Part shown: piece after piece, positions 1 to 39,772 of the stretch
Layout: every line of letters begins with the position of its first letter
Position numbering within the stretch: the stretch's first letter is position 1
Source of the DNA: a virus
Length of the DNA: 39,772 bases
Virus record (IMG/VR): IMGVR_UViG_3300045988_162015
Direction: 5' to 3' (one strand)
Translations under genes and position numbers: made by a program
The notes under the pieces: generated by a model
Databases searched by the model: none
The model's input: only the letters and a program-made list of their open reading frames with translations
Told to the model about the DNA's origin: nothing

Positions 1-54
1 AAAGAGGATTGCCGCAATCAAATTATGTTAGACAACAATATGCAACAATAGCCT

Positions 55-468
55 ATGAATACTTCGTTCAATGAAGATGAATTTAATAAACTTATAAATA
101 AAATGGCTGCTTCTTGGGGTAGCTTTGGTATTTCAGCTGAAGAAGCTGGAAAAGCTATTAATGATTTAACAGCTAAACTTGATGAATTTACTAAAATAGC
201 TCCTTGTGATACCTATGAAATTAGGGGCGGTAGGGGCAACAAAAAAATGGCTATGCTCCGGCCAAGAGCAGGCGTAGAAACCGAAAGCTCAAATCGAAAA
301 TATGATTTAGAAATTTTTGATGAAAATGGTGATAGTAAATTAAAAATGCCATTTGATGAAGATTATGTTTATATTATTCCAACAGTTCAAGAAAAACCAA
401 TGAAGGTAGTCTTTGAAAATGATGAATTTATATGGAAAGGAGAAGTAAATCCCATTGATACTAACTGA
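55..468 (+). CDS. hypothetical protein. The frame stays open upstream to position 1 if the TAG at 49-51 is read as Gln, so the gene may be 5'-truncated by the window edge.
   Basis: ORF-track frame 1 ends at TGA 466-468. The in-frame upstream stretch 1-54 contains only a TAG. No SD motif precedes any of the candidate ATGs at 25, 40 or 55. Confidence 0.5.
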   Translation: MNTSFNEDEFNKLINKMAASWGSFGISAEEAGKAINDLTAKLDEFTKIAPCDTYEIRGGRGNKKMAMLRPRAGVETESSNRKYDLEIFDENGDSKLKMPFDEDYVYIIPTVQEKPMKVVFENDEFIWKGEVNPIDTN

Positions 469-528
469 TAAATAGAATGCTGGATTGAAAATTGCCGTAG
501 CCAGATACAAGAGCCGTGAATCTTATAC

Positions 529-1647
529 TTGTATTGCTGGCTACGCTTAACTGGAACGGGCAAATCTACATTAGTAAAATTTATAGTTCAATCATTGAAT
601 TTAAATCCTGAAACTGATGTAGCATATGTAGCTTATACTGGTAAAGCAGCCACTGTTCTTCAAACAAAAGGATGTCCTAATGCAACAACAGCACACAAGT
701 TATTATATGAAGCTAAGCCAAGACCCAATGGTACATTTTATTTAAAAAAAAGATGGCCTATTCCATATAAAGTAATTATTGTAGATGAAATATCAATGTT
801 GCCTAAAACAATGTGGGATTTGCTTCTTTCACATCATAAATATGTAATTGCTTGTGGTGATCCATTTTAGCTTCCACCAGTAGACCCAAATGAAAATAAT
901 CATGTTTTGGATAAGCCGCATATCTTTTTAGATGAAATTATGCGACAGGCCCAAGATAGTGAAATTATTAGATTATCTATGTGGGTACGAGAAGGTAAGC
1001 CCCTTGGGCAATTCCCAGTAGCTAAAGAATAGGTCTAGATTTTAAGGCCATATGAATTAATTCCAGAAATGTATGATTGGGCAGATCAAACTTTATGTGC
1101 TTCTAATAAAAGACGTATTGAAATTAATAATAAAGTTCGAGAGCGACAAGGGCGAGGAGCTACTCCAGAAATAGGAGATAAAATTATAGGATTAACTAAC
1201 CATTGGGATTTTACATCTACTGATGGTTTATGGCCTTTAACTAATGGATGTATTGGAACGATTACTAATTATCAAATTATTCCATATAATTATCCAAGCT
1301 TTATTTATAATAAACAACTCCAATATATGTTTACGGGGATGGATATACCCAATGGAAGATTTGAATCTATACCTATTGATTATGACGCTTTAATTACAGG
1401 TACTCCAGCCTTTGATAATAAGCAAGCATTTAGAATGAATAGTTTTGCTAGAAATACTGATGCATTAGAAGCTCCTTATTATTTTGCTTATGCTTATGCA
1501 ATAACTGTTTGGAAAGCTCAAGGTAGTGAATGGGATAAAGTGTTATTAATTGAAGAAGCCCATCCTTTTGATACATTAGAACATTAGAAATATTTATATA
1601 CTGGCATTACAAGAGCCAGTGAAAAATTAGTAGTTATAAGGAAATAA
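529..1647 (+). CDS. SF1B helicase, Pif1/RecD-like, read through 4 in-frame TAG codons (868, 1030, 1036, 1585). The N-terminus is uncertain.
   Basis: A Walker-A-like LTGTGKST follows the start. The motif GDPF[TAG]LPPV places TAG at the conserved Gln. The segment YTGITRASEKLVVI after the TAG at 1585 resembles helicase motif VI. The gene ends at TAA 1645-1647. An in-frame TGA lies at 517-519, and the only start-like codon is TTG at 529, which has no RBS. Confidence 0.7.
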
Positions 1648-1650: not shown

Positions 1651-2250
1651 ATGAATGTATTAAGCATAGATTTTGATATTATTATGGCACCAAGTATTAA
1701 TTTATATAATAATATGGTTCCTGGGACTAATTGGGATGATTTATTAAAAAGTTTACCCAATCTTACAACAACTCCTGCTGATTTAAACATTTATTCTAAT
1801 ATACTTAGATATTTATTACGGACTATAGATAAAACAACTTCTATTTATATTTCTTATGGTCATAATAAAATAAAAGAATATTTACAATATGATTATGATT
1901 TAAATATAACTAATATAGATCATCATCATGATATTTTTTATAATCCTAAAGACGCAGAAAATAAATTGTGTGATTGTAGTTGTGCTGATTGGGTTAAATA
2001 TTTTCATGATTAGGGTAAATTAAAAGATTATACTTGGGTTCATAATGATAATTCTTGTGATCCAACTTTTGAAGTAAATTTTAAATATAATAAAATTCCT
2101 TTTAAAGAATTTAAATTCGCTGAATCTTATGATAAGTATTTTATTTGTTTATCTCCTGAATGGGTTCCACCTTATTATCATAGTTTATTTTATACTATTT
2201 TGGATTGTTTAAATGAAAAAAATAATTATCATTTGGAGATTGTAGGATAA
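1651..2250 (+). CDS. hypothetical protein (199 aa), read through the TAG at 2011-2013; contains an HHHD cluster.
   Basis: ORF 1651..2013 continues in the same frame through TAG to TAA at 2248-2250. The codon count was checked by hand. Confidence 0.6.
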
Positions 2251-2441
2251 TGGAAATACAAAATTTACTTAATTAGTTAGGTTGTGAGTTAGAACAACAA
2301 CAACAACATAATCAAAACCAAATTGATTATTTACGCAATGAAAATCAAAAATTAAAAAATAATTTATCAACATATAAATAGAATTTAATTGAATTAGCCG
2401 GTATCATAAATAGAATAGCTAATTAGATAGATGATTTTTAA
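2250..2441 (+). CDS. small Gln-rich coiled-coil protein (63 aa) with 3 in-frame TAG codons.
   Basis: The ATG overlaps the previous stop (TAATG). The frame is open to TAA 2439-2441 apart from TAG. The sequence is QQQQHNQNQ-rich. Confidence 0.4.
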
Positions 2442-2508: not shown

Positions 2509-5500
2509 TTGGATACTTATTTTGGTTGTCATAATCATACTGATTATTCGAACCTCCGTTTACTTGATTGTATAAATAAACCAGAAACTTTAATTGATAA
2601 AGCTATTGAATTAGGACTTTCGGGAATTGCCATTACAGATCACGAAAGTCTTTCTGCACATATGACAGTAAATCAATATGCTAAAAAAATTAAAGAGAAA
2701 TACCCAGATTTTAAAATAGCATTAGGTAATGAGATTTATTTAACCGATGATAGAAGTACAGGACAAAAATATTATCACTTTATTCTAATTGCTAAAGATG
2801 CTATAGGTTATCGAGCATTAAAAGAATTAAGTTCAATTGCTTGGCAAAATTTATATGTTGATAGAAAAATGGAACGAGTTCCACTTTTAAAGAGTGAATT
2901 AAAGCCAATAGTAGAAAAGTATAAAGGGCATTTAATTGCTACTACTGCTTGTATCGGCGGAGAGTTAGGAACTTGTTTATTAAAAGCAACAGAATACCAA
3001 GAGCAAGAAAATAAATATGAATTATACCAAACATTAAAACAAATAGATACTTTTCTTACTTTTTGCCAAGATTTATTTGGTGAAGATTTTTATTTAGAGA
3101 TTGCACCATCAACTGCGGCAGATCAAAAACTTGTAAATCATATGATTTATAAAATTGGTCGTAAATATGGAATTAAAGTAGAAGTTGCTACAGATAGCCA
3201 TTATTTAACTAAAGAAGATAGACCAATTCATAAGGCTTATCTTAATTCAAAAGACGGCGAACGAGAAGTTGACAAATTTTATGAATTTGCTCATTTAATG
3301 ACTTATGATGAAGTCTTTAAATTAATTGAACCTTGTTTTATTTACTTAGATATTGAAGAACAACCAGAAGAAATCGCAAAAGAAATTTTAAATAATACTC
3401 TTGAAATCCAAAATAAAATTGAAGATTTTTCGCTTGAAAGAAAACAAATAATTCCAAAAGTAGAGGTAACTGATTACCCTCAATCATTAACTGGTTGGTA
3501 TGGTGAGCGTGAAGAGAAATATCCTGTTTTATGTAGCTTATTAATGAGCAACAATCCTCAAGAACGTTATTGGGTTAATGAATGTTATATGTCTTTATTG
3601 GAAAAGATGTATAATAAAAGTATTTCAGATGATAAGTTAGAAATTTATTTAAGTCGTCTTGAAACTGAAGCTGATATTATAAAAGATATTGGTGAAAAAT
3701 TGGATGACTGCCTTTTTGCTTATTTTAATACCTTTAAACATTATATTGATTTGTTTTGGGATTGTGGTTCTATTGTAGGTCCAGGACGTGGCTCGGCCAC
3801 AGGTTTCTTATCTAATTATTTGTTAGGTATTACTCAGCTTGACCCTATAAGATGGGGTCTTCCTTATTGGCGTTTCCTAAACAAAGAACGTGCTGAGTTG
3901 CCTGATATTGATATTGACTTAGCTCCTTCAAAACGTCCAGCGATTTTTGAAGCTATTCGTAAAGAGCGTGGAGAGTTAGGCTTAATTCAGGTTGCTACAT
4001 TTGGTACTGAAACTACTAAATCTGCTATTCTTACGGCTTGTAGAGGTTATAGGTCTGATGATTATCCAAATGGTATTGATGTAGATGAAGCCCAATATAT
4101 GTCTTCTCTTATCCCACAAGAACGTGGATTTTTATGGGAAATTAATGATGTCATTTATGGTAATGAAGAAAAAGATAGAAAGCCTGTAAAAACATTTATT
4201 AATAAAGTAAATGAATATCCGGGCCTTCTTGATATAATTATTTATATTGGTGGCATTGTTAATAAACGTTCTTCTCATGCTTCTGGTGTTATTCTTTATG
4301 GTGATGACCCATATGATACAGCAGCATTTATGAGAACTCCCAGCGGTAGTTTAATTACTTGTTGGGACTTACATCAGGCGGAAGCTGCTGGAGATACTAA
4401 ATATGATTTCCTTGTAACTGAAGCTTCTGATAAAATTATTACTTGTTATGAATTATTATTAAAAGCTAAAGAAATTCCTGATTTATCTTTAAGAGATTTT
4501 TATAATCAATATATTCATCCAGAAGTAATAGATACAACAGATCAAAAAATTTGGGATCATCTTGCCGCAGGCGATGTATTAGACTGTTTCCAGTTTTCTA
4601 CTGGCGTAGGATTAGCTATTGCTAAAAAATTAAAACCACAAGATCCTATGGAAATGACTGCGGCTAATGCCATGATGCGTCTTATGTCTGAAAAAGGTAA
4701 GGAATCACAACAAGATAGATTTTATCGTATTCAGCATCAAGGCATCCAAGCATTTGATAAAGAAATGAAACAACATCATTTGCCGCAAGAGCTTATTGAT
4801 AAATTCCATAAGCATTGTGATAAATATTATGGTTGTTGCCCTTTACAAGAGCAAATGATGGAAATTCTTATGGATATAGCACATTTTACATTGGGAGAAG
4901 CAAATTCCGCCCGTAAAGTTGTTGCTAAAAAACAAATGGCTAAAATTCCTCAATTAAAAGAATAGGTATTTAACCGTTTTGATAATAAAAATGATGCAGA
5001 ATATTTTTGGGAAACAGCAGTTGCACCGCAATTAGGATATGCTTTTAGCTTAAATCACTCGCTTCCTTATTCTTTTGTGGCTATTCAAATGATTTATTTT
5101 GTTATTCATTATAATCCTATCTATTGGAATTGTGCTTGTCTGATTGTTAATAGTGGATCTTTGGAAGACAATAGTGAAGAAGAAATTGTAGATATTTATG
5201 ATCCAGAAGCAGATGATTTAGCCAATGGTGTTACTTTTGAAGATTTGCCAGATAAAAAATCAAAAGTAAGAAAAACTAATTCTACTGATTATGGAAAGAT
5301 TGCTAAGGCTATTGGCGATATTCGTAAGGCTGGTATCCAAGTAAGTCTTGCTGATATTAACAAATCAGAATTTAGTTTTATTCCTGATGTGGAAAATAAT
5401 CAAATTCTATTTGGTTTAAAAGGTATGCTAAATGTTGGAGACGATGTAGTTAAAGCTATTATTGAAAATAGACCTTATAAATCTCCAAGAGATTTTTTAA

Positions 5501-6510
5501 ATAAAGTTAATCCTAATAAGCAAGCAATGATTTCACTTATTAAAGGTGGAGCATTTGATCATATGATGGATAGAAAACTTTGTATGGTCTGGTATATTTG
5601 GGAAACTTGTGATAAAAAGAAAAATCTTAATCTTCAAAATTTAGCTACTTTAATGAAATTCAATCTTCTTCCTGCAGATACTCTTGAACGGCAGCAAGCT
5701 TTACACATTTATGAATTTACTCGTTATTTAAAACAAATTTGTAAATATGATAAAGTTTATTACAAATTGGATGATAGAGCTATTGATTTTTTACAAAAAA
5801 TTGATAAAGATGATTTAATTCAGAGTAAAGATTCTAACTTTTATTTAAATATTAAAGATTGGAATGATAAAGTTTATCAAGGCTGGATGGATGTTTATCG
5901 TAAACAGATTGCTGATAATAAAGAAGAAATTTTAAATAAATTAAATGAAATTGTATTTAAAGAGGATTGGAAAAAATATTGTCCTAAAGTAAATTATTCA
6001 GCTTGGGAAATGGAAGTATTATGCTTCTATTATCATGAACATGAATTGGCTCAAGTTAATCAAAGCAAATATGGCTTCGCTGATTTTTATAGCTTACCTG
6101 AAGATCCAGTAGTAGAGAGAAGTTTTGTTAAAGCTGGAAAAACAATTAATATTTATTATTTATCTAAATTATGCGGTACTTGTATTGCTAAGAATAAAAA
6201 TAAAAGTATCGTAACAATTCTTACTCCAACAGGAGTAGTAAATGTAAAATTTAGAAAAGAATATTTTACATTATTCGATAAACAAATTTCTCAAAAACAA
6301 CCTGATGGAACTAAAAAAATTATTGAAAAATCTTGGTTTAATCGCGGTAATATGATTGTGGTTCAGGGCATTCGCTCCGGTGATGATTTCATCGCTAAAA
6401 AGTACGCCTCAACCGCTGGTCATCAACTTTATCATATTGATGAAATTCAATCTAATGGAAATTTAATTTTACGGAATAATCGTTTTTAGGGAGAAGCTGA
6501 AGATGAATAA
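2509..6510 (+). CDS. dnaE: DnaE-like DNA polymerase III alpha subunit (about 1333 aa) with a TTG start and one internal TAG (4963-4965) read as Gln.
   Basis: N-terminal PHP domain (FGCHNHTDYS...ITDHESL). The core contains GPGRGSA, DIDIDL and the block GYAFSLNHS...IQM just after the TAG. AAGGAGG lies 7 nt upstream of TTG 2509, and the upstream in-frame TAA at 2494 excludes an ATG start. The frame is continuous through the TAG at 6487 to TAA 6508-6510. Confidence 0.85.
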
Positions 6511-7072
6511 TAAAAAATATCAATTAGTAGCACTCATAGGTAAAGCCGGTTCAGGCAAAGATACTATTTTAAAAGATGTAGTAAAAGCTTATGAATTACC
6601 TATGAATATTGTTGTTTCTTATACAACTCGTCCAATGCGTGAAGGAGAGACAGAAGGAAAAGAATATCATTTTATATCTGAAGAAGATTTTAAGCAAATG
6701 ATAAATAATAATCAAATGCTTGAATATGTTCAATTTAACAATTGGTGGTATGGGACTGGCATTAAATGTTTAGCTGATGATAAAATTAATATAGGTATTT
6801 TTAATCCTTCTGGCATTAGATCATTAATCAATTTTCCAGAAATTGATTTACGGATATATTATATTCATGCTTCTGACAAACAACGTTTCCTTCGTCAATT
6901 AAATAGAGAGGAATACCCTGATATTAAAGAAATTATTAGGCGTTATTCTGCTGATGAAGAAGATTTTAAAAATATAAATTTTGATAATATGCAAATTTTA
7001 TTTAATGAAACTGAAAGAGATAGATTAAAATGCTGTGATATAATTACAGATTATGATTGGTTTTGGTACTAA
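6503..7072 (+). CDS. gmk: guanylate kinase-like / dNMP kinase.
   Basis: P-loop GKAGSGKDT and TTRPMREGE, the guanylate kinase signature. The ATG overlaps the polymerase tail. No TAG codons. Confidence 0.7.
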   Translation: MNNKKYQLVALIGKAGSGKDTILKDVVKAYELPMNIVVSYTTRPMREGETEGKEYHFISEEDFKQMINNNQMLEYVQFNNWWYGTGIKCLADDKINIGIFNPSGIRSLINFPEIDLRIYYIHASDKQRFLRQLNREEYPDIKEIIRRYSADEEDFKNINFDNMQILFNETERDRLKCCDIITDYDWFWY

Positions 7073-7163: not shown

Positions 7164-8450
7164 ATGTATATAATTAAACGTGATGGTACAGTTGTATTAT
7201 TTGATAAAAATAAAATAATTAATGCTATTAACAAAGCATTTATAGAAGTCGATGGATAGTTATATGAAAATGATACAGCTACTGATATTGCCAATGATAT
7301 TGAATCTTGGATAAATAAATGTCCAGATGGTAGTATTGAAGTAGAAGATATCCAAGATATAATTGAAGATTATTTAATGTAGTCAGAACGACGTGATGTT
7401 GCTCGTGCTTATATTAGATATAGATATAAAAAAGAAGTAGCTCGATAGAAAAAAGATGATTTTATTCAAGCTATTAGAAAAAAATTAGATGGTAAAGATA
7501 TTAAAAATCAAAATGCTAATGTAGATGAAGCATCATTCGGTGGCCGCATTGGTGAAGCCAGTAGTGTTGTAACGAAACAATTAGCTTTAGATTATATTGT
7601 ATCTCCTATGACACGCAAAAATCATTTAGAAAATATAATTTATACTCATGATTTAGATGCTTATTATGTTGGTTCTCATAATTGTTTAAGTGTACCTTTT
7701 GATGATTTACTTGCTAAAGGATTTAATACACGTCAAACTGATGTGCGTCCGGCAGGTTCAGTAAATACAGCTTTCCAATTAGTAGCTGTTATTTTCCAAA
7801 TTCAAAGTCTTTCTCAATTTGGTGGCGTTAGTGCTACTCATCTTGATTGGACTATGGTTCCTTATGTTCGTAAATCTTTTTATAAGCATTATCGTGATGG
7901 TATGAAATATTTATGCAATTGTAATTGGAATTTAAATAATTATTTAGAAGATAGCGACAGCTATAAAAGAATTATAGATATTCCAATCAATGATTATTCT
8001 GCATATTCAAATGAAATAGATGATGTTGGAGATTTTGATAAAGTATATCAATATGCTATGGATATGACTTTAAAAGAAGTTCATCAAGCAGTTGAAGGTA
8101 TGTATCATAATCTTAACACATTACAATCACGTTCTGGTAATCAATTACCTTTCACATCTATTAATTATGGTACTTGTACTCTTCCAGAAGGAAGAATGAT
8201 TACTAAAGCTCTTTTGGATGTATCTATTGAAGGTATTGGTAAATTACATAAAACATCTATTTTCCCTTGTGGTATTTTCCAATGCATGAAAGGAGTTAAC
8301 CGTGAACCAGGTGACCCAAATTACGATTTGTTTAAACTCGCACTATAGTCCACCGCCCAAAGATTATATCCCAACTATGCAAATGTTGATTGGTCAGGGA
8401 ACGCTGGATATGACATTAATGACCCCCGCACCTATTTTTCTACAATGGGT
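7164..8450 (+). CDS. nrdD: anaerobic ribonucleoside-triphosphate reductase NrdD, exon 1 (ATP-cone plus the N-terminal part of the core), with 4 in-frame TAG codons.
   Basis: ATP-cone MYIIKRDGTVVLFDKNKI. Conserved DPNYDLFKLAL[TAG]...RLYPN...STMG ends at a U at 8450, and exon 2 continues with CRTANGYD. Confidence 0.85.
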
Positions 8451-9300
8451 AAGCGAAAACTCAGCCCATTTAAAATCTTTTGAACCGCGCCAGCGGGTGT
8501 CTCTATAAAGAGGCTAACGGTTAGGTCTTAATATAATTGGCTGTAATATTAAGATGAGACCGTGCTAAGATTCATCATAATATTCATATAAAGGAGGTAT
8601 CCTTAATGTGGATATATAAAATAACAAATATTCAAAATAATAAAGTATATATTGGTTAGTCTATTAGACCAATTAATCAAAGATTCCAAAGACATATAAA
8701 TGATGCTCTTAATAATATTCTTGATACTCATTTTGCCAGAGCAATAAGAAAATATGGTAAAGAAAATTTTATTATAGAAGAAATTGATACAGCAAACACG
8801 CAACAAGAGTTAAATGAAAAAGAGCAATATTGGATTAAATATTATAATTCAGTAATAGATGGTTATAATGAAACAGACGCTATTTCTAAATGCGGTGGAA
8901 ATACTTATCAATCTAAAACTGATGAAGAAATAGAAGTTATTAAAAATAAAATTCGACAAACTAAAGTAGGAAGTAAAAATCCTATGGCTAAAAAAATAAA
9001 AAGAATAAATATTTTTACTAATGAAATAGATATTTTTGATACTATTATTAGTTGTGCTAAAGCTTGTGGAATTTAGAATGGTAAAACTTCTATTACAAAT
9101 AGATTAAATGGAAAAATTAAAAGTCCATTTAGAAATACTTGGAAATTTGAATATTATGATGAATAAAGTGTATCGACTATCCCTGATGAATGTAAGGGAG
9201 TAGGCTTGGAGATAGGCACCGAGCCGAAGCGGAAGACAACTCTATTTTATAGATAGAATGATAATATAGTCAGTGCCAATGGTGACATTGGGTAATCATG
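8451..9300 (+). mobile_element. group I self-splicing intron (850 nt) in nrdD carrying a homing endonuclease ORF.
   Basis: The 5' exon ends in U. The P1 pairing is exon AATGGGU with intron GCCCATT about 13 nt in, with a U-G wobble at the splice site. The intron ends in G at 9300. The exons rejoin in frame (…STMG|CRTANGY…), matching the NrdD family. Confidence 0.75.
8606..9166 (+). CDS. GIY-YIG homing endonuclease encoded inside the intron (186 aa), with 2 in-frame TAG codons at 8657 and 9074.
   Basis: WIYKITN...KVYIG[TAG]S GIY-YIG motif, a conserved Arg (RFQRH), and a Glu in EQYWIKYY. AAGGAGG lies 8 nt upstream. The 187-codon count was verified by hand. Confidence 0.8.
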
Positions 9301-10278
9301 TGCAGAACAGCCAATGGATACGATATTAACGGTTTCGGTTAGCTAAAAGATGGCCGTGGTAATATTTGTCCAGTAACTATTATTCTTCCTACTTTAGCTA
9401 TGATTGCTAAAAAAGAATGTGAAGAAGAAGGGCAAGAAGAAGATATTATTCCAGTATTTATGGCTTTATTAAATAGAAAAATTAATGAAGCTCGCATTCA
9501 ATTAATGGAGCGTTTTGATTGGATTTGCTCTCAAGATCCTAAGTCTGCTAAATTTATGTATGAAAATAATTTAATGGCTGGCTATATTCCAGAAGAAGGA
9601 ATTAGAAGTGCCCTTAAGCATGGCACATTAGCCATTGGACAAATTGGTTTAGCAGAAACTCTTTAGATTCTTATTGGTAAAGACCATACAACTAAAGAAG
9701 GTATGGAATTAGCGAAACGAATTGAACAAATGTTTAAAGATTACTGTGCAAAAGCAAAAGAACAATTTAAACTTAATTTTGGAGTTTATTACACTCCTGC
9801 TGAAAATTTATGCTATACAGCAATGAATAAGTTTAAAGAAAAGTACGGCATTATTCCTAATGTGTCTGACAAAGAATTCTTCACTAACAGTATTCATGTT
9901 CCTGTATGGAAGAAAATGTCTCCATTTGATAAAATTGATATTGAAAGTCAATTAACTGGTTATTCTTCTGCTGGATGCATTACATATGTAGAGTTAGATT
10001 CTACAGTAAAACACAATATTGATGCCCTTGAACAAATTGTCAATTATGCTATGGATAAGGATATTCCTTATTTTGCAGTAAATGTGCCTAATGATACTTG
10101 TTTAAGTTGTGGATACTGTGATGAATTTAATGATAAGTGCCCTGAATGTGGTAGCCCTAATATTCAATAGTTACGTCGTGTTACTGGTTATCTTACTGGT
10201 AATTATAAGACTGCTTTTAATTATGGCAAACAAAAAGAAGTAGAAGCACGAGTAAAGCATACGGGGTAGATGGAATGA
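9301..10278 (+). CDS. nrdD: NrdD exon 2 (glycyl-radical and Zn-ribbon C-terminal half), read through 4 TAG codons. It ends at TGA 10276-10278.
   Basis: CRTANGYDINGFG...RGN, the Zn site CLSCGYCDEFNDKCPECG, and the glycyl radical motif RRVTGYLTG. The frame matches ORFs 9400..9666 and 9703..10170. Confidence 0.85.
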
Positions 10279-10622
10279 TACATTCAATTTATGATTTAGC
10301 GAATTATTTTAATTAGAAAGAGGGAAGGAAATATCCTTGTTCTAATTAGATAGTAATATGTGCTTATATAACAAATAATTCACAAGAAGTCTATGATTAT
10401 TTGAATAAAAATAATATTATACCAATCAGAGTATCAAAAACTCGTATAGAATGGCAAGAAAATAATGAGCGATGGATATGGTTACCTATAACCTAGAATA
10501 CTAGAGGCTATAGATTTAATAAAGTAAAAATATCTAAAAATTATAATAATGAAGAAATATTAAAAACAATAATTATTCCTTATTGTAGTTTATATTGTTG
10601 CTCTTGGGAGGTTATGGAATGA
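10275..10622 (+). CDS. possible small hypothetical protein (115 aa) with 3 in-frame TAG codons, sitting between nrdD and nrdG.
   Basis: The frame is open from ATG 10275 to TGA 10620-10622 apart from TAG. ATGA-type overlaps occur at both ends. No recognisable motifs, so it may be spurious. Confidence 0.3.
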
Positions 10623-30700: not shown

Positions 30701-31016
30701 ATGCTTTGCCTTCAATAGTTTTTTTCTAAGTAAAATCACCGCCTGGTACTTTTACATATACATTAGTTCCTTTAGAATATACATAAGTTAATGTAGCTGG
30801 GGCATAAGCACGAAATTTCCCTTTTTGATATTCAACAAAATACTCTCCAGTACTGGCATCGTTTAGACTTATAACTTCAGCAATTATAGTTTTATCAAAT
30901 GATAATTCAGCATCACGTGCCCGTGCTATATAATCTATAGTCTCTAATAAGGCATCTGTTATTTCTTTTGGCTTTTTTATAGTAGCTAAATATTCTTCTT
31001 TTCTATTATAAGCCAT
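27720..31016 (-). CDS. large virion structural protein (about 1098 aa), possibly an extended Dit-like distal tail protein. About 25 TAG codons.
   Basis: ORFs 30726..31016, 29976..30329, 29511..29735, 28848..29189 and 28038..28271 all share a frame, and only TAG codons separate them. RBS AAAGGAG. Confidence 0.7.
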
Positions 31017-31030: not shown

Positions 31031-31065
31031 CTCCTCAAAAATGAGGAGGAAATTAATCCTCCTCA
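31031..31065 (-). promoter_or_regulatory. two overlapping alternative hairpins (CTCCTCA/TGAGGAG and GAGGAGG/CCTCCTC) between the tape measure stop and the next RBS. They could act as a partial terminator or a translational-coupling element.
   Basis: The stems involve SD-like GAGGAGG sequence, and an ATTTTT run follows on the - strand. Confidence 0.4.
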
Positions 31066-34000
31066 TTTAGATTTATTTGCACTTATATATTGAGCCGCAT
31101 TATTACTAAGATTAGACAATGCTTCTTCAATTTCATAATGATCAGTAACTCCTGGGAAGTCTGCTTGAATAGTAACTTCTTGCTTAATTGGCTAAGTTTC
31201 ATAAACAGGTGGAGTAGTTTTATCAATCAAATTACCTAATTTTATCTATCCAAAATTAATCATTGATTGTACTTGTTTATCAACCCAATCATTCATATTA
31301 CGAACAATATCAACTGCACGAAGTATATTAGAAGTATCTTTTTGGTTAAGAATTAATTCTTTAGGATGGACTTTAATAATTTTACCATTATCAAGTCCAA
31401 AGCCTTGTCCTTTAGCCCAATTACCAGTATAGGCACCAGAAGCAGCCCCATTTCCATTTAAAATATCATCTAACCATTTTTCATCTTTTTCGCTAGTAAT
31501 CTATTTCATTTCGTCTTTAGTCCAATAATCAGTGCTAGAATCATTCTTTAATTCTTGACCTTCATTACGCATATTATCTAATTTTTCATTACGGGCTGTA
31601 ACTACATCATCAATACTCGTCCAAACGTTACCATTTTTATCAACAACAGTACTTTCCCCATTCTTCATACGAATAGCAATAGCACTTAAATCAACACCAA
31701 CTAAATTTCTAGCACCACTTCCACCGCCACTACTGCCAAAATTACCATCAATATACTATTCATTCTTAGCTAACTCTTCATCAGTCCGCTTAGAATATTT
31801 CTATTCCCAATCAAGAACCATTCCAATAGACTAAGAAATATAGCCCATTAATACATTAACAAGCTCTTCAATTTCATCACATAATTTTTGAATATGTTCT
31901 TCAAGACTATCAAGAGTACCGCCCATATCAGAACCAAAGTTTTCCCAAGATGTACCAGCAACGTTCATTGCTGCTTCAACAACTTTTTGCCAATCTTTAT
32001 AATTGGTTTGTAATTCACTAATTGTAGTATTAGAATTATTAACAAATAACATATAAGCATCATTATAATCATACAAATCAGTCATTTGGCCGTAGAGAGT
32101 ATCATGGAATGTTAATCCACTATTTACAACACCTTTATTTAATTCATCAAGTAAATATCTTTGTCTTTCAACATAATATTCTTGCAATGATAATAGCTAA
32201 TTTGAATAATCCGCAGAGTTTTTATCAAGATCTTGTAAGGCTTCTTTAAAATCAATTTGATTCTAAATTAACTATTCACTTACATCATTAATATAATCCT
32301 TACTTAACTTACCTAATTCATGAACCGCATCTTCATATTTCTATGTAGCGTCTTCAATTTTTTCTTCATCTGCATCATAAGCATAAGTCCAATTACCTGC
32401 GGCATCACGTACTAAACGCATTGAAGTTTTTGAATTTTGTTGCTCCATAAGAGCTATTTCAGCAAGTTGTAAGTCATATTTCTTCTATAAATACTCAAGG
32501 TCATATTGGCTCATCTAGACGCCATCGGCCTGAAGATCGTGAATCTCTTGCTAAATGTCTCTAAGTTTTTGTTTAGCTAAAAGGTCATTAGTATCAGCTA
32601 GCTATAAATTTAGCTAACGATTTAATTTATTTAATTCATATAAGCGTTCGGCATCATCAAGATATTCTTCATTAATAGTTTTTGCTTTTTCGTATTTATC
32701 TTGGAAATCTTCAAGAGTCTCAAATGGTGATAATGCATTACTTAATACATTAACGGCCATTTCAACACGCATTTCAAATAAATCTTGAGCAGCTTCAAGT
32801 GTTTCTTCCCAAGAAGCTAAAAATTCATCAGAAGCTTTTTCAGTTTCTTGTTTTAATACTTCAACTTGATTCTCCCAGAATTTAACAGAAGATGTATCAC
32901 CATCAGCCTGACGATCAGCGAGAGCGGCCTAAGCCTCTTTAGTTGCTTTAGCTAAACCATCCATTTGTGCTTTTAAAGATTTCATTTTACCTAACATTGT
33001 TTCTACTTTAGTAGCACCAATCTAAGTTTTTAATCCCATATCAAGCATTGAGCGACCAGACAAATCAATAATATTATTGAGATGATCAAGCATTGATGTA
33101 TAAGTATCAAGACGTTCTATCTACTTATCAATTTCATCAAGGGCTAAGTCTAGAACATTCTAAACTAAATCTTCAATATCATTACGCAAGTCTAGAATAG
33201 CTTCATTAACATCTATCAAATCACTTTGATATTCAAGTATCTATTCATCGAACATTTGTTCATAACCTGGATACTTAGCTTTCGCGGCGTTCAACTAATC
33301 AATACCCTAACGTAATGTAGCACCTTTATCAAAGAGCTATAACATTTCTTGCTCTTGGTAAGCAAATCCTTCAAGCATTGCTTCAATAGTTTGTTTATTA
33401 CCATGAGCCTATTTAAGAAGTTTTTCTTGATAATAATTAAGACGTTTAATCTAATAATCAATCTATTTAACTTTCCAATCAATAGCTTTTGTAATGGCTT
33501 CGAGTTCAAGTTCAGCAGCTTCTTTTTCTTTCTGAGCGATAAGAGCAACATTTTCATCAATATTCTATTGAATACCCATAGGACCATCAAGGCTATCTTT
33601 AATTTTAGTAAACCATTCATTTAAGTCTTCTTCGCTCATACCATCTTCAAGATTTTTTTGATACTAAGCCCAAACTTTACCCCATAGCTCAGAAGCATTA
33701 GCAATTTCACCATCATCAGTAAGCTTTATTTCAAATTCTGGATTTTCTTTGTTAAATTCTTCTACTTTAAGTTTTAATAACTTTTTCCAAGATTTAATCT
33801 AATCTTCAAGAATATCTTGCTCTTCTTTTAATAATTTTATTTCCTCTTGGATATATTTAGCAGAGTCTTCAGGATTAGCTCCATCACGTAAAGCTTCAAG
33901 ACGATCACGTTTCTTTTCTTTAGTTTTCAATAATTCATCTTGAATTTCTTTACCAATATCATTGGCAGATTTAGATTCAGAGCCGCCGCCTCCGCCTCCA

Positions 34001-37000
34001 CCTTTATTACCATTTTCAGTAGTTAAATATTTCCCGCCGTCTCCTTTAGTAACCAATGAGCCTTCAGAAGCTACACTTATAGTATCTCCAATAGTTCTCT
34101 TAAGTTCCGCTATTCGTGCTGGGTCTGCATTCGTTGGGTCTTTCATAATCTCTGCAATTTCCTAGAAAGCATTAAATAAAATTTGCAACTAAGAAGTATT
34201 AAAATGAATACCGACTTGTCCCATAGCATTAATATAACCACACATTTCTTCTATAGATCCGCCAAGAGGAGCAAGTGCAGCTAATGCTTGTGAAGCATCT
34301 GCCGTAATTCTACCATTAACTACAAATCCATCATTCTAAGATAAAAGATTGGTTATTTCATTTAGTTTAGTCTAAGCCGCAGTATATAAAGCTGAAAAAT
34401 CTAATTTTCCAGCAGATTCATTTATTTTTTCGATTAAAGCACTATCTACCTAAGAAAACATATCTAAGACTTTACCAGCTAAAGCTGCTTCATCATCATT
34501 ACCCCATAAAAATTTTTCTATTAATGGTTGATTCATCTAATAATCTGATTCAGAAAAATTAAATAAATCTTTTACTTTTTGTTTTAAGTCAGCTTCCACT
34601 TCAGCAGTATCTTCGCCTTCATCATGCAATTCTTTATATTTTGTTTTTAATTCACTAATTTCTTTGGTAGCTTCTTTTATTTCATTATTACGTAAAGCAT
34701 TATATAAATTATTAATAGCTTTTTGGGCGGCATTAGCATTATCTCCAGCCTACTCCATCTCATAATTATACTAATTTAAAGCTTCAGTATTACCTTCAAT
34801 ATCTTGATTTTTAGCAGCCCAACTTACTAAACCTTGCTAGCTAGCCTCATCCCCTAAATTAAAGCCTGTCATTTGATTCATTTCTTTTACTGAATTAGCA
34901 TCAGTATAAGCATTAGTTCTTAATAAATCAGCATTATATGATCCATCAATATTAGCCATATAAGCATCTATTATTCCTTGAATAATATCAGCCTAAGTAG
35001 CTGAATCCTAACGTTTATAATAATCTAAATCATAGTTACCTACTTCATCAGTACCAACTAATTTTGCTATTTCTTCAGAACTACCAAAAATATCTAGCAT
35101 TTGCTACATATAACGGCCTCGAATATCTGTAAAATTCCCAGCTGCCATAGCTGCTAAATTATTATCATAATCCTATCCATTAATGCGTATTCTAGTGCCT
35201 AAATTAAACTAATCATTCCAATTATCCTAAGCAGTTTCGGCAACATTATGCTATTCTTCAGCTTTATCTATTCCAGCCTAAGTTAAAGCATTTTTATCTT
35301 TAGTATCAAAATCCTTAACTTTTATATATTCGTCTGGACCAGTCTAAACATAATAATCTTCAGGATTTAACCCAGCAGCTTTAAAACCTTTAGTAATCTC
35401 ATCATATTTTTCTTGAGTGATAGAACTACCGACTTCTTGACCCATCAAGTTAAAAATTTCAATTAACAAATCTCTAAAAGTAGTAAAATCTTCTATAGGC
35501 AATTTATTAGCAGTTTCTTGCATCATATCATAGAAGCCTTTCCAAGCTCCTTCATCATCTGATACAACAATGCCTAAATCTTCTAGGGTATCAATAAATT
35601 CTTCCCAAGTTCCAGAAGACCAATCAAAATCAGCTATTTTATTTAACTAATCAAAAGTTAAATCTTTTCCTACTGTATTAATTGCTTCGGTAAACGCAAC
35701 AACCCCATTTTTACCTGCCACTTTAAATATATCTTCTGCAATCTAAGAAATACGAGATTTTAATGAAACACTATATCCTTCAAATTCATCAATTGCTTTT
35801 GATATATCATCTTCATCTTCAAGCCCTAATATATATTTAAATGCTTTATTATTACTTATATCTTCAATATTAGCAATCTAATGCGATGCTTCTTCTACTA
35901 TAGCTTCACCTAATTCTTTACCGCTAGTTACGCCTAATTCTTTCATCATATTAGACATATATGATTTTACAGTTTCTTGCTATTCAGGCTCTAATATATT
36001 AAAATCTTTACCAAATAAGCTCTATCCAATTAAATTCTATAAATCTTCATCTTCAAAGCCTTTTTCTATATCTGTTTTTAACTATTCAAGCTAATCTTGA
36101 GTAAAATTACCTAAATCACCATCATTGCCAAAAAATTCTAAAATACCTTGACCCACAATTCCCTAATTACTCATACCAGTCTAAAATTTTTGAGCCATAG
36201 CATAAGTAGTCTAAAGTTCTTCTCCCATAGCCTACATAGTAGCTATTGCAGTAGCAACTTCTGAGAATAATATAGTTTTTCCATTCTCTAATTGGAATGA
36301 CCTATTCTAACCTTCACCAATTACAGAATTTTTCTAGTTTAATTTATATTCACTATCATTTTTATCAATTTTAGCCGCTGCTAAATAAGCATCCCATAAA
36401 TTACGTAAAGCTTGATCTCCTTTACCAGCTCCACCAGCATTTTCATCGTGAGTTCCTATTTCTCGGTCCTTACCAGTTCCGTCATCCCAACTAATAGTTC
36501 CATTGTCATTATAAAAGCTATCTTTAATAGCTTCAATATTAGCATCTACCAAAGCGGTGGTTATTTTAGCATCTTCAGTAGACATAGTATTTAATCCAAG
36601 AGCCTATTGGACTGAAGCTTCTTTCGTAACCTATAATGTAGCGTCAGTATTTGCTTGTATTACTTTTGAGACATTAGATATAGCAGCTTGAACATCATCA
36701 GTATTAAATTTATCTGCAATTTTCTAGGCATAATCATTTAAAGTCGTATTGTCATTGAGAGTTTCAAATCCGTTATTCTTTAATGCCTATTCGATAATAC
36801 TAACTTGTTCTTCCTAACTTTTATTCTATAAATTTTCCTAATTATTCAAAATTAAATCTGCTATACCTGGCATTACTGAAGTATATTGTCCATTTTTTGT
36901 TAATCCTCCAGTTGTAGTACCACTCTAAATATTAAGAACATCCTAAAGATTACTTGTTAAGTTCTATTTAGCTTTTTCAATATTTAAGTCTTCTAAATTG

Positions 37001-39772
37001 CTTTGTTCATTAGCTAAAGCATATTGCTATTGAAGAATCTATTTATCATAAATAGACTATAATTTATCAACAGCATTTTGATCTATCCAAATTTCACCAG
37101 TATCTTTCTTGCCCCAAGCACCTTCCATATTCTTTAACTCAGGATAAGTATTTAAAATATTAAGAGCTTCTTCATTAGTTTTAGCTAACTATTCACGCCA
37201 TTCTTTAGTACCAACAGTGCATTCATCTAAGGCCGATTTAACAGAACTATAATTATTAAATACTGATTTTAGCTATTCAGCTTTATTTTTTGTTTCTTCT
37301 AACTATGATTTAAAACTTTCAATAGCTTTCTCTGACCGTTCAATTTGAGCATCTAATGAATAACTTTCAGCAGCTTTATAAGCTTTAACCAAAAGCCAAA
37401 CAACAGCTACTACTGCCGCGATTGCCGCCGCATATTTTGCAAATATAAGGACTGATTTGCCTAACATAGCACTTAACGCGGCACCGCTACCCTAAGCGTC
37501 TATCTAAGCTTTAGCCTATTGCTATAATTGTCTACTTACTTCACCAGTTATTACATTAGTTTTATTATCTTTGAAATAAGCCTTTTTTAATTGATTAAAT
37601 TTTTTATTAATAAGGTCATTATATTCTTTCTCAAAATTTTGAGTATCTTTAATTCCTAACTTAGCAGAAAAAGCATTAAATCCACTCTAAAGAATTTTTC
37701 CCTTCTTTGTATTACTAAAACCTGAACCACCAGATTTTATTTTTTCCTAAAATGCTTCTCCTAACTAAGTACCATCCATACCAGTCGCAATAGAAATAAT
37801 ATTAGTTCCTAAACTACCAGCATTTTTGACTATAGCCTAAATTCCAGAATTTAAAGATTTAAAACCATTAACTAAAGAAGGCAAAGCTATGCTTGCGGAC
37901 ATTATTCCTGAACTTAATTTTTCACCAAAATTTAAATCATCATCAGATAATGTTTCAAGTAATCCTTTAAAACTGGTTACTCCTATACTAAATTGGCTTA
38001 TGCCCTAAACTGTAGTAACTAACCCATTAGAAAAATTACTAATAGCTCCTTGGCTTTTTGCCAAAGTTTTCTAAAAATCATTTATTGAATCTGTATATTT
38101 TTTATTAGCATTATTACTTTGTATTAAAGTTTCTTTTTCTTTTACATAGCCATTTAAACATTGACGTAATGCTTCAACCTATTTTTTAGTAGCTCCATCT
38201 GCACTGACCTTATTATTTACATATTTATCTAAAACTATATTAACATCTTTTAAATTATTTATTTCTTCTATGATCTAATTTCTATATCGAGACTAAATAT
38301 TACTTGGTTTATCAGAAGCGTCTTTAGCTGATTGTATTAATGAATTTAACTTGTTAAATCTCTAATCATTATCTAATCCTTTAATATTATTAAATTTAGC
38401 CAAAAAATTCTAATAAGAATCACTATTATCAAATTTCTAAGAATTTAACTATTTTAAAACCTTATTATTATAAAAACTATCAATTAATTTTTGTCCAGCT
38501 TTATAATTCTTATCAAAATATTTTACACCAGTTTCTCCGCCAAAATTTTCATTAGTGGTAAGAAAAATCTAGTTTCTTGCATCTCGTAAACTATCCTAAG
38601 TCTATTGCTGCTAATTCTCTATGCTTCTTTTAGCTTGTATGGCAATATCTCCATAAGCCTAAGAAATTTTTAATAAAGTCTAAAGTCTTAATTTATCTGT
38701 CTCATTTAATTGGCTATTAGCTATCTGTAAATCATAAGATGCCTAAGCCGCATTAATCATTGTAGTAGTTTCTAAAGTAACAGAACCCTAATCCGATAAT
38801 GCCATTTTAGATTCAGGCGAAAAAGATTGCAAGGTCTAAATCATCGCTTTTTTCATAATTGCAGCCTAATTTTCAGCAGCTCCACTATCAATAAATAAAT
38901 TGGAAGCCATACGCTACATATTATTTACAATATCAGGACCAAAACTCTTTAACATTAAGGTAGAAATAACACTTAATACCCCGGGTAATCCACCTAATGA
39001 ATCAATCAATTTACTTGTAATATTTAATGTGTCACTTAATGTATTATTTAATCCAATAAAAAATTTATCATTAACTAATTGTTTATAAATTTCTTCAAGA
39101 GAAGCCTGCACTCGCTTTTTAGAAGCTTCCCAGCTCTCAGCAAAAATATCAGCTTGCTCTTGTAAAGTACCCTTAGAATTTTTAGCCACTCCAACTAGCT
39201 CTTTAAAATAATCTTTATTCTCCATAAGATTAACTAATTGAGTGTATTGACGAACACCACCAACAGTCTATGCAAGAGCTACTTGTTCAGCACGACTTAA
39301 ACTATCCCACTTATTCATCATTTCATCAAGGATAGTATTCATATCTTTTAACTCACCCTATTGGTCTTTAATACTAATACCAACTTTTTCAAGGGCTTTA
39401 GAATATTTATTTAAATCAGTACCATCTTCAAGAGTTTCTCCGAGAGTCAAACCCTAAATACGAGCGAATAAAGTTTTAAGGCTATTACCTACTGTGTTTG
39501 CACTTTCACGTGTTTTAGCAGTTAATGTAGCTAATGCAGATGTAGCATATTCATAACTAAGACCAATAGTATTGGCGACAGACGCGAATTTCTATATACC
39601 TTCTGAAATTTCATCAGTACTAGAAGCAGTATATGCACCAAGCTTAGTCATTACATCTGCATAATATTCAAGAGATTTGCTACCATCATAGAAGTTATTC
39701 CAAACAGCAGTTAACTAATCAGATACTTTAGAAGCACTTTCACCTGCTGCATTAGCCATTTTAATAGTAACG
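31063..39772 (-). CDS. tail tape measure protein, at least 2900 aa, TP901-type N-terminal core. Roughly 110 in-frame TAG codons. The 5' end is at ATG 39759 or beyond the window.
   Basis: A row-by-row codon scan of 31066-39772 in one frame found only TAG interruptions. The N-terminal region MANAAGESASKVSDQLTAVWNNF...TIGLSYEYATSALATLTAKTRESANTVGNSLKTLFARI matches the tape measure core. There is a central hydrophobic segment, extensive coiled coil and a Gly7 run. TGA at 31063-31065. Confidence 0.85.

What the first reader, a model, noticed from the sequence alone, without database searches (positions are those of the whole stretch)
1..39772. Genome-wide TAG to Gln reassignment (genetic code 15-like)
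- Read with TAG as a stop, this window breaks into many short ORFs and very little of it appears to encode protein.
- Read with TAG as a sense codon, it resolves into tightly packed genes with SD sequences and start/stop overlaps, some thousands of codons long, in single frames.
- TAG lands on functionally conserved Gln positions: helicase GDPF[Q]LPPV at 868-870 and NrdD KLAL[Q] at 8346-8348.
- TAG also lies inside the conserved DnaE core, just before the GYAFSLNHS block (4963).
- TAG is interchangeable with CAA/CAG in poly-Gln runs.
- TAA and TGA still terminate genes at sensible places.
Basis: partly seen in the sequence, partly recalled or inferred. Interest (0 to 1): 0.9.

Follow-up and report, generated by a model that had tools for sequence, protein, structure and literature searches.

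The report
Gut phage reads TAG as glutamine

Summary
With TAG as a stop, ORFs of 100 aa or more cover 45% of the window. With TAG as sense, about 29 tightly packed genes tile it. They hold 254 in-frame TAG and no in-frame TAA or TGA in 12,752 codons, although TAA plus TGA make up about 10% of off-frame triplets.

TAG means Gln. In relatives from 98% down to about 40% protein identity, the non-TAG codons opposite the window's TAGs are mainly CAA/CAG (88 of 234 in mid-distance relatives, against a 2.7% background, p = 3e-75). A likelihood ranking picks Gln in every informative relative. TAG occupies the invariant Gln of helicase motif III and of the helicase N-terminal LTxxQ motif.

The likely decoder was found outside the window. 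Close relatives carry a tRNA(CUA) in a tRNA island about 44 kb upstream, including a contig 94-97% identical to the window. One allele is non-canonical and escapes standard detectors.

Two details fail. The NrdD site is not a conserved Gln, and the DnaE TAG lies 28 codons before the named block.

The phenomenon is already known (code 15 phages). The window is identical over 17 kb to a public Peruvian gut contig, from the sample source Borges et al. surveyed. Interest is low. One by-product is odd: a 5-nt, stop-containing interruption in the helicase P-loop.

The parts
1..468 (+). g01, unknown protein, 5' end cut by the window; 1 in-frame TAG (49)
   Evidence: no Pfam hit; TAG kept in 5 relatives
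455..547 (+). SF1B (Dda/RecD-like) helicase, N-terminal segment in a different frame; TTG start at 455; LTDKxNA motif with TAG at 473-475
   Evidence: TAG 473 aligns with Q30 of Dda (3upu) and with Q in about 60 family members
548..552 (+). 5-nt interruption TAACT (a TAA stop plus CT) inside the Walker A coding sequence GYA|GTGKST
   Evidence: most relatives are uninterrupted
553..1647 (+). helicase main body; TAG at 868 (motif III Gln), 1030, 1036, 1585
1651..2250 (+). g03, unknown, 1 TAG
2250..2441 (+). 63-aa ORF, 3 TAG
2509..6510 (+). DNA polymerase III alpha (DnaE) with PHP domain; TTG start after AAGGAGG; TAG at 4963 and 6487
   Evidence: (both TAGs are CAA/CAG in 5 relatives)
6503..7072 (+). 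guanylate kinase-like protein, 0 TAG
7164..8450 (+). nrdD 5' part (ATP-cone plus NRDD profile positions 2-265); TAG at 7257, 7380, 7446, 8346
8451..9300 (+). about 850-bp insert splitting nrdD at MG|CR; contains a GIY-YIG endonuclease gene at 8606-9166 (2 TAG, one in YIGxS)
   Evidence: no Rfam intron hit
9301..10278 (+). nrdD 3' part (profile positions 264-562, glycyl radical); 4 TAG
10275..13784 (+). g09-g16: unknown proteins, NrdG activase (10619-11104, 0 TAG), dUTPase (12169-12717, 0 TAG), RuvC-like protein (12760-13266, 3 TAG)
13795..13828 (.). hairpin plus T-run terminator between the convergent gene blocks
   Evidence: terminator part of a weak Rfam match
13831..16384 (-). g17-g20 and a 78-aa ORF (15703-15939, 9 TAG): small late proteins of unknown function; g20 has 9 TAG in 143 codons
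16545..16952 (-). holin, 2 TAG
   Evidence: phrog_13712, E = 1e-26
16966..20568 (-). g22 (965 aa, 21 TAG) and g23 (233 aa, 9 TAG), presumed tail or baseplate proteins
20580..24188 (-). g24 tail protein, 1202 aa, 18 TAG
   Evidence: (phrog_32343, phrog_1887)
24185..31016 (-). g25 (1142 aa, 28 TAG) and g26 (1098 aa, 24 TAG), large tail proteins
31063..39771 (-). tape measure protein: 2902 codons in the window, 110 TAG; start lies beyond the window (3107 aa in relative L129)
   Evidence: PF10145, E = 7e-23

Best explanation
The window is part of a roughly 185-190 kb tailed phage genome from the human gut. In it, UAG is decoded as glutamine (genetic code 15), and UAA and UGA still terminate.

Shown:
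- TAG is an in-frame sense codon in about 24 of 29 genes.
- Its evolutionary partner codons are CAA and CAG.
- It sits on invariant Gln positions of the helicase.
- The lineage encodes a tRNA with a CUA anticodon. It lies in a tRNA island co-oriented with the replication genes, about 44 kb upstream of window position 1.

Inferred:
- After infection of a standard-code host, the phage expresses this suppressor tRNA, and the host's glutamine-charging system loads it with Gln. This fits the tRNA's features: an unpaired 1:72 position, G73, an encoded CCA end and the anticodon loop C/U-U-CUA-AA.
- Loaded tRNA then lets the TAG-rich tail, lysis and tape-measure genes be translated in full.
- TAG is 4.5 times denser in the late block than in the replication block. 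This fits the published idea that recoding delays or gates late gene expression.
- That gating cannot be a clean early/late split here. Helicase, NrdD and RecJ also need TAG decoding.
For: - ORF structure and codon counts.
- Window TAG sites against relatives: in near relatives 168 stay TAG, 20 are Gln and 12 are other residues. In mid-distance relatives 100 are TAG, 88 Gln, 31 Glu, 21 Ser and 20 Lys.
- Gln ranks first in the likelihood test in every relative with at least 50 sites. Binomial p values run from 2e-23 to 3e-75.
- Both DnaE TAGs are CAA or CAG in five relatives.
- The helicase motif III Gln and the N-terminal motif Gln are encoded by TAG.
- tRNA(CUA) is present in L281, L282 and L285, with Rfam tRNA scores of 46-49 bits, and in L288-L294 and L297.
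- L289 is the same ENA contig (k119_68296) as L004, which is 94-97% identical to window 1-17245.
- A cloverleaf non-canonical CUA allele sits at the same locus.
- Literature: Borges et al. preprint 10.1101/2021.08.26.457843, PMC9523058, PMC10607447.
Against: - No tRNA lies in the window or within about 90 kb around it in relatives.
- The tRNA locus of the window's own contig (HCO70 scaffold_1) could not be fetched.
- The amino acid loaded on the tRNA is inferred, not measured.
- No release-factor or tRNA-synthetase gene was seen in the roughly 110 kb inspected. How RF1 competition is overcome at 110 TAGs in one gene is therefore unexplained.
- The host is unknown. MAG bin labels give only weak Firmicutes hints.
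Confidence: 0.93

Rival explanations
1. The TAGs are real stops and the genes are decayed or fragmented pseudogenes.
For: Under the standard code the late block breaks into ORFs of at most 214 codons.
Against: - There are no in-frame TAA or TGA in 12,752 codons, although they are 4 times more common than TAG off-frame.
- Frames are continuous for up to 2902 codons.
- 168 of 200 TAG sites are conserved as TAG in near relatives, and the rest are mostly Gln codons.
- The same architecture occurs in hundreds of independent contigs.
Confidence: 0.01
2. TAG is a sense codon for an amino acid other than Gln (Glu, Lys, Tyr, Trp, Leu, Ser or pyrrolysine).
For: - ARAGORN labels the CUA tRNA 'Pyl' by default.
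- Glu, Lys and Ser are the next most frequent partners of TAG.
- In NrdD the TAG sites align with K, E or variable residues.
Against: - Gln beats the next candidate by 54-192 log-likelihood units in each relative.
- The Glu/Lys/Ser partners match the ordinary substitution spectrum of Gln.
- Two invariant Gln positions of SF1 helicases are TAG.
- TAG to CAA needs two base changes and is still the commonest replacement.
- No pyl genes were seen.
Confidence: 0.03
3. TAG is not fully reassigned. It still terminates early in infection, when only host RF1 is present, and becomes Gln once the suppressor tRNA accumulates. The code would then switch in time and act as a late-gene gate.
For: - TAG density is 0.6% in replication genes and 2.7% in late genes.
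- Several early-type genes have no TAG: guanylate kinase, NrdG, dUTPase, and outside the window primase, ligase, topoisomerase II and RNase H.
- This is the model proposed by Borges et al..
Against: - Helicase (5 TAG, two in catalytic motifs), NrdD (8), RecJ-like (16) and DnaE (2) need TAG decoding.
- The major capsid protein, a late gene, has no TAG. The split is therefore not cleanly early versus late.
- Timing cannot be tested from sequence.
Confidence: 0.4
4. The host itself uses TAG as Gln, and the phage simply matches its host.
For: The host is unidentified. Relatives' contigs are binned with low-GC 'Mollicutes' and Clostridia MAGs.
Against: - The phage carries its own tRNA(CUA) next to its own tRNA-Gln(UUG).
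- Many genes avoid TAG entirely, unlike phages adapted to recoded hosts, where about 90% of genes are recoded.
- From my own knowledge, no bacterium with TAG as Gln has been described.
- The 'Mollicutes' bin looks like mis-binned phage contigs.
Confidence: 0.03

Closest known systems
TAG-recoded (code 15) gut phages of Borges et al. (preprint 10.1101/2021.08.26.457843), with Ivanova et al. 2014 as the earlier report (own knowledge)
   Same: - In-frame TAG read as Gln, concentrated in structural and lysis genes and variable in replication genes.
- A suppressor tRNA(CUA).
- Firmicutes-type phages of about 150-210 kb from non-westernised human guts, including the same Peruvian cohort.
   Different: - I could not place this genome in a named clade (Jade, Sapphire or Agate), because no terminase tree or reference sequences were available.
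- Replication enzymes here also carry TAG in catalytic motifs.
phAss-1 / proposed Phassvirus group (PMC10607447; GenBank OQ749652, NCBI 'Caudoviricetes code 15 clade')
   Same: - Closest annotated relative by tblastn (38% on the tail protein g24; DnaE 38%, NrdD 37-45%).
- Code 15, a tape measure protein of about 3,100 aa, nrdD-nrdG and DnaE genes, and a tRNA island with Sup-CTA.
- One phAss-1 suppressor shares the anticodon arm CCGGTCTCTAAAACCGG with the non-canonical allele found here.
   Different: - phAss-1 is 136 kb with 44.5% GC; this lineage is about 188 kb with 29% GC.
- No nucleotide-level similarity and rearranged gene order.
- phAss-1 has 36 tRNAs, against about 7 here.
crAss-like phages with code 15, validated by metaproteomics (PMC9523058)
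   Same: The same reassignment, with peptide-level proof that TAG is translated as Gln.
   Different: - An unrelated lineage with Bacteroidota hosts.
- This window has strong Shine-Dalgarno sites, a DnaE-type polymerase and no crAss-like hits.
E. coli supE-type amber suppressor tRNA-Gln(CUA) (own knowledge)
   Same: A tRNA with a CUA anticodon carrying Gln competes with RF1 at UAG. The weak 1:72 pair and G73 are GlnRS identity features, and the phage alleles share them.
   Different: supE suppression is partial and tolerated only at rare sites. Here 110 TAGs in one gene imply near-complete decoding.
MT835469 (176-kb gut phage) and Enterococcus phages EF1 and VRE9
   Same: Distant homologues of the tail protein, DnaE, NrdD and NrdG.
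   Different: These use the standard code. Treating TAG as sense adds almost no coding density in MT835469, and it has no CUA tRNA.

Membership tests
Code 15 (TAG to Gln) recoded phages | In-frame TAG in intact conserved genes, with TAA and TGA still used as the only terminators | tested here: met
   254 TAG, 0 TAA and 0 TGA in frame in 12,752 codons. All genes end in TAA or TGA.
Code 15 (TAG to Gln) recoded phages | TAG positions align with Gln in homologues | tested here: met
   (Gln first in every relative, p down to 3e-75). Helicase motif III and LTxxQ motif Gln.
Code 15 (TAG to Gln) recoded phages | Phage-encoded suppressor tRNA with a CUA anticodon | tested here: met
   Found in close relatives only, not in the window: L281, L282, L285, L288-L294 and L297. 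L289 and L004 are the same contig, 94-97% identical to the window. The window's own contig could not be read at that locus.
Code 15 (TAG to Gln) recoded phages | Recoding enriched in structural and lysis genes | tested here: met
   2.71% of codons in the - strand tail/lysis block against 0.60% in the + strand replication block. Exceptions: RecJ-like has 16 TAG, the major capsid protein has none.
Code 15 (TAG to Gln) recoded phages | Peptides showing Gln at TAG positions | not testable with these tools
   Needs metaproteomics of samples that carry the phage.
Code 15 (TAG to Gln) recoded phages | Host uses the standard code | not testable with these tools
   Host unknown. Only MAG bin labels are available.
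Proposed genus Phassvirus (phAss-1) | Genus-level nucleotide identity and conserved synteny with phAss-1 | tested here: not met
   No megablast match, 24-45% protein identity and rearranged gene order.
Borges gemstone clades (Jade / Sapphire / Agate) | Placement in a large-terminase clade with at least 95% bootstrap support | not testable with these tools
   No reference terminase sequences are held.
Crassvirales | crAss-type conserved gene set and similarity to crAss-like records | not tested
   Indirect only: tblastn of the tail protein finds phAss-1, MT835469 and Enterococcus phages, and no crAss-like record.
Group I intron with homing endonuclease (T4 nrdD type), for the nrdD insert | Insert at a conserved catalytic site, absent from some relatives, carrying an endonuclease ORF | tested here: met
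   Insert at 8451-9300, at MG|CR. L003 and L004 lack it. L005 and L006 carry LAGLIDADG and HNH inserts instead.
Group I intron with homing endonuclease (T4 nrdD type), for the nrdD insert | Recognisable group I ribozyme core | tested here: inconclusive
   No Rfam match even at E <= 1.
Programmed translational bypass (T4 gene 60 type), for the helicase interruption | Stop codon directly after the take-off codon | tested here: met
   All six alleles read GCY followed by TAA or TGA.
Programmed translational bypass (T4 gene 60 type), for the helicase interruption | Matching take-off and landing codons | tested here: inconclusive
   The landing triplet is an Ala codon in L030, L066 and L072. It is ACT in the window and L069, and GTA in L036.
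Programmed translational bypass (T4 gene 60 type), for the helicase interruption | Stimulatory RNA structure at the gap | tested here: not met
   Fold z-scores from -0.2 to +1.5.

The most novel reading that the evidence does not exclude
The helicase gene of this lineage is expressed by a short translational hop. The ribosome would leave the Ala codon, skip a 5-8 nt insert that always begins with a TAA or TGA stop, and resume at the Gly codon of the Walker A motif. These would be natural short-range bypass sites in a phage that has already rewired stop-codon decoding. A related reading is that interchangeable suppressor-tRNA cassettes, including a non-canonical tRNA that standard detectors miss, help explain why most code-15 phages appear to lack a suppressor.
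Probability: 0.25. Interest if true: 0.7.

Novelty: already known. Interest (0 to 1): 0.25.

Why it matters
For the finding itself, the consequences are practical.
- Annotating this phage with the standard code destroys about half of its proteome, including the tape measure, tail, portal and terminase proteins. Table 15 must be used.
- The window adds a well-resolved example from a large, common family of roughly 190-kb gut phages: more than 100 IMG/VR contigs and more than 330 metagenome contigs.
- It shows that TAG can sit in catalytic Gln positions of replication enzymes, not only in late genes. This constrains the 'recoding as a late-gene switch' model.

The by-products may matter more. 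A suppressor tRNA locus swaps alleles, and one allele is invisible to ARAGORN and Rfam. A conserved stop-containing interruption in a helicase P-loop still needs an expression mechanism.

Tried and rejected
- Megablast of window 1-25000 against GenBank phages gave no match.
- ARAGORN and Rfam on the window, at gathering score and at E <= 1, found no tRNA, no intron and no ribozyme, only terminator-like hits.
- An exact-match search for the window's first bases in IMG/VR found nothing.
- I walked outwards from the window in relatives and found no tRNA in about 90 kb. The island appeared only at the last steps.
- MT835469 turned out to use the standard code and to lack a CUA tRNA, so it did not help with the mechanism.
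- Synteny with phAss-1 was too rearranged to predict where the tRNA island would be.
- The theta-ribozyme paper's supplements do not list these contigs, and no supplements are held for the Borges preprint.
- GC-rich, ORF-poor stretches in relatives (L196 350-600, L275 9700-14300) are not tRNA arrays and match no Rfam family.
- I tried to reach the tRNA locus of the window's own contig through protein look-ups. These returned sister contigs, not HCO70 scaffold_1.
- A simple -1 or +1 frameshift at the helicase interruption is rejected as a general explanation. The insert lengths are 5, 6, 7 and 8 nt.
- No local RNA structure was found there.
Full report

The window is 29% GC. Under the standard code, ORFs of 100 aa or more add up to 5,918 codons, which is 45% of the window. 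The longest has 822 codons. On the - strand none exceeds 214.

When TAG is treated as sense, the picture changes. The + strand from 1 to 13784 and the - strand from 13831 to 39771 are tiled by single-frame ORFs of up to 2902 codons. Treating TGA as sense gives no such gain.

In the 27 main genes there are 254 in-frame TAG and no in-frame TAA or TGA among 12,752 codons. In the two other frames of the same genes, TAA makes up 5.7-6.6% of triplets, TGA about 4% and TAG 2.1-2.6%. At roughly 10% TAA plus TGA per triplet, an open frame of 2902 codons cannot arise by chance.

Every gene ends in TAA or TGA. Of the 23 ATG starts, 22 are preceded by a GGAGG-like motif, and several genes overlap by 1-8 nt.

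**2. What the genes are**

The + strand encodes a replication and nucleotide-metabolism block:
- a Dda/RecD-like SF1B helicase;
- DNA polymerase III alpha with a PHP domain;
- a guanylate kinase-like protein;
- anaerobic ribonucleotide reductase NrdD, split by an insert;
- its activase NrdG;
- dUTPase;
- a RuvC-like protein.

The - strand encodes a holin, several large tail proteins, and a tape measure protein whose start lies beyond the window. The two blocks converge on a hairpin terminator at 13795-13828.

**3. Where the sequence comes from**

Window positions 1-17072 are 100% identical to ENA contig ERZ5839929 'aot2015-HCO70_SRR1761673_Peru_scaffold_1' (187,676 bp). Five other contigs of 153-189 kb are 92-98% identical.

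The gene calls stored with those contigs already contain products of 965, 1182 and 439 aa that read through TAG. Public pipelines have therefore already treated TAG as sense.

The family is large. More than 100 IMG/VR contigs and more than 330 metagenome contigs carry relatives, typically 185-200 kb long.

**4. Which amino acid is TAG?**

I aligned the window proteins, with TAG masked as X, to TAG-open ORFs of 18 related loci spanning 98% to about 30% identity. I then read the codons opposite each window TAG.

| Relatives | Stay TAG | CAA/CAG (Gln) | Other |
|---|---|---|---|
| Near | 168 | 20 | 12 |
| Mid-distance | 100 | 88 | Glu 31, Ser 21, Lys 20, Asn 13, Ala 13, plus 48 spread over other residues |

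The mid-distance pattern is the ordinary substitution spectrum of Gln. The reverse comparison (relatives' TAG against window codons) gives the same picture in the near and mid-distance sets. In the six most distant loci it does not (5 Gln of 73).

I estimated substitution profiles for all 20 amino acids from the same alignments. Gln explains the TAG column best in every relative with enough sites, with a margin of 54-192 log units. Against a background Gln frequency of 2.7-2.9%, binomial p values are 2e-23, 3e-75 and 3e-22. TAG to CAA needs two base changes and is still the commonest replacement.

Independent standard-code evidence agrees:
- TAG 868 is the Q of GDxxQLPPV in RecD2, 9kwf and Dda.
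- TAG 473 is the Q of the N-terminal LTxxQ motif. It aligns with Q30 of Dda, and about 60 family members have Q there.
- Both DnaE TAGs are CAA or CAG in all five near relatives.

Codon usage fits as well. CAG is rare (38 codons), and TAG (254) is nearly as frequent as CAA (336). Counting TAG as Gln raises the late block's Gln content from 2.7% to 5.4% of codons.

**5.

- The NrdD site at 8346 is not a conserved Gln. Solved NrdDs have K, E and E there, and two close relatives have Arg.
- The other NrdD TAGs also fall on variable polar positions.
- The DnaE TAG at 4963 is 28 codons upstream of GYAFSLNHS.

Neither point affects the conclusion.

**6. Mechanism**

The window has no tRNA. I walked outwards through relatives. 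About 90 kb around the window contains no tRNA in any of 8-80 family members per step.

The next steps reached a tRNA island with this order:
- Thr(UGU), Pro(UGG), Gln(UUG), Tyr(GUA);
- a ROOL RNA;
- a tRNA with anticodon CUA;
- in some genomes Leu(UAA);
- RAGATH-33;
- Gly(UCC).

The CUA tRNA scores 46-49 bits with the Rfam tRNA model. It is present in IMG/VR, ENA and Logan contigs. One of these is ENA contig k119_68296, the same contig as L004, which is 94-97% identical to the window. There the tRNA lies about 44 kb upstream of window position 1, on the same strand as the replication genes.

Three alleles occupy the locus:
- The common allele.
- A second, canonical allele (L282).
- A third allele (L284, L287) that follows a GIY-YIG endonuclease gene. 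It lacks the D-loop GG and has the T loop GGCAGCA, so ARAGORN and Rfam miss it. It still folds as a clean cloverleaf with anticodon loop CUCUAAA.

All three alleles have an unpaired 1:72 position, G73 and an encoded CCA. From textbook knowledge of GlnRS identity and of supE, these features fit Gln loading, but that step is an inference.

No release-factor or synthetase gene was seen in the roughly 110 kb inspected. With 110 TAGs in the tape measure gene, decoding must be above 99% efficient per codon to give a useful yield. How RF1 is outcompeted is open.

**7. Distribution of TAG**

TAG makes up 0.6% of codons in the replication block and 2.7% in the late block, reaching 3.8% in the tape measure protein. 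This agrees with the published late-gene enrichment.

The split is not clean:
- Helicase, NrdD and the RecJ-like protein (16 TAG) need suppression.
- The major capsid protein has no TAG.

**8. Comparison with what is known**

TAG to Gln recoding in gut phages is established:
- Borges et al. surveyed it in gut metagenomes that include the same Peruvian cohort. They named roughly 150-210 kb clades and detected suppressor tRNAs in only 40% of TAG-recoded genomes.
- Peters et al. gave peptide proof in crAss-like phages.
- Babkin et al. described phAss-1, the closest annotated relative here at 38% identity on the tail protein. NCBI files it under a 'Caudoviricetes code 15 clade'.

This lineage is not a Phassvirus. 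It shares no nucleotide similarity, has a different GC content and size, and its gene order is rearranged. A distant 176-kb relative, MT835469, uses the standard code.

The finding is therefore correct but already known.

**9. By-products**

(a) *nrdD insert.* nrdD is split at the catalytic MG|CR by an insert of about 850 bp carrying a GIY-YIG gene. Relatives have no insert, or have LAGLIDADG or HNH inserts at other positions.

(b) *Helicase P-loop interruption.* The helicase reading frame is broken inside the Walker A codons by TAACT at 548-552.
- Most relatives read ...CIAGYAGTGKST... without a break.
- Other lineages carry 6-, 7- or 8-nt inserts at exactly the same nucleotide. Each begins with TAA or TGA directly after the Ala codon, and never with TAG.
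- Skipping the insert restores the motif and improves all profile scores.
- The downstream ORF is under strong purifying selection among genomes that share the interruption, for example 47 synonymous against 2 non-synonymous codon differences.
- A short translational hop would explain all alleles. Endonuclease repair scars combined with some rescue mechanism is the main alternative. This is unresolved.

(c) *Neighbours of the tRNA island.* The island carries a ROOL RNA and RAGATH-33. It is followed by genes with a major-vault-protein shoulder domain and DUF2828.

Noticed in passing
window 455-555: The helicase gene is broken inside the Walker A codons by a 5-nt insert TAACT (548-552) that starts with a TAA stop. 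Most relatives are uninterrupted. Other lineages have 6-, 7- or 8-nt inserts at the same nucleotide, all starting with TAA or TGA. The ORF downstream is under purifying selection. Possible causes are a short translational hop or an endonuclease repair scar.
   Followed up: partly
window 8451-9300: nrdD is split at the catalytic MG|CR by an insert of about 850 bp with a GIY-YIG endonuclease gene (8606-9166). L003 and L004 have an intact 754-aa NrdD. L005 has a LAGLIDADG insert elsewhere in nrdD and L006 an HNH insert. No Rfam group I intron match.
   Followed up: partly
window 2494-2511: DnaE starts at TTG 2509, after AAGGAGG. The public gene call starts 51 codons too late and loses the PHP motif HNHTDYS. 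A 63-aa ORF with 3 TAG lies at 2250-2441.
   Followed up: yes
L284 7385-7459; L287 3632-3706: A non-canonical tRNA-like gene with a CUA anticodon replaces the canonical suppressor and follows a GIY-YIG endonuclease gene. It has no GG in the D loop and the T loop GGCAGCA. It folds as a cloverleaf but is missed by ARAGORN and Rfam. Its anticodon arm is identical to that of a phAss-1 suppressor.
   Followed up: partly
L281 7724-8311 and 9543-9655; L285 5749-6342 and 8248-8360: The tRNA island of relatives contains a ROOL RNA (RF03087, about 320 bits) and a RAGATH-33 RNA (RF03102, about 139 bits), which flank the suppressor tRNA.
   Followed up: no
L287-L297, e.g. L289 11911-16508: Downstream of the tRNA/ROOL island lie a DUF2828/DUF7788 protein (512 aa) and an 826-829-aa protein with a major-vault-protein shoulder domain (PF11978), plus NADAR and Eco57I-like genes.
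   Followed up: no
L196 350-600 (about 20 kb beyond the window's right end in relatives): A GC-rich (52-56%) conserved non-coding element in a 29% GC genome. It has a 10-bp helix TGCACCGCAC/GTGCGGTGCA that keeps pairing through two compensatory changes in L195. It has no Rfam match and is flanked by short direct repeats.
   Followed up: partly
L275 9700-14300: A stretch of about 4.5 kb with 38-52% GC and only short, implausible ORFs under any stop-codon reading. It has no tRNA and no Rfam hit.
   Followed up: partly
L046 15859-17130; L047 16333-17604: An intein-like insert of about 1 kb in the same helicase P-loop (GTGK|AQPV...VTHN|TTLV).
   Followed up: no
L003 6039-7139; L004 5181-5750: DnaE of relative L003 is split by a NUMOD3 endonuclease gene. 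L004 and L005 carry a GIY-YIG gene directly upstream of DnaE. Homing endonucleases are frequent in this family.
   Followed up: no
L129 779-1912; L110 6493-10711; L002 1084-2826: TAG use is uneven outside the window. The major capsid protein, topoisomerase II subunits, ligase and primase have no TAG. The RecJ-like protein has 16, the terminase-like protein 11 and the portal-like protein 10.
   Followed up: partly
L276, L279 (GTDB contigs CAMELE010000010 and CAMELE010000001): A MAG labelled 'uncultured Mollicutes bacterium' holds two contigs (60.6 and 164 kb) that match this phage family. It is probably a mis-binned low-GC phage rather than a host.
   Followed up: no
window 16515-16540 and 13795-13828: Strong hairpin plus T-run terminators lie after the holin gene and between the convergent blocks. 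They were picked up only as weak false matches to sRNA families.
   Followed up: no
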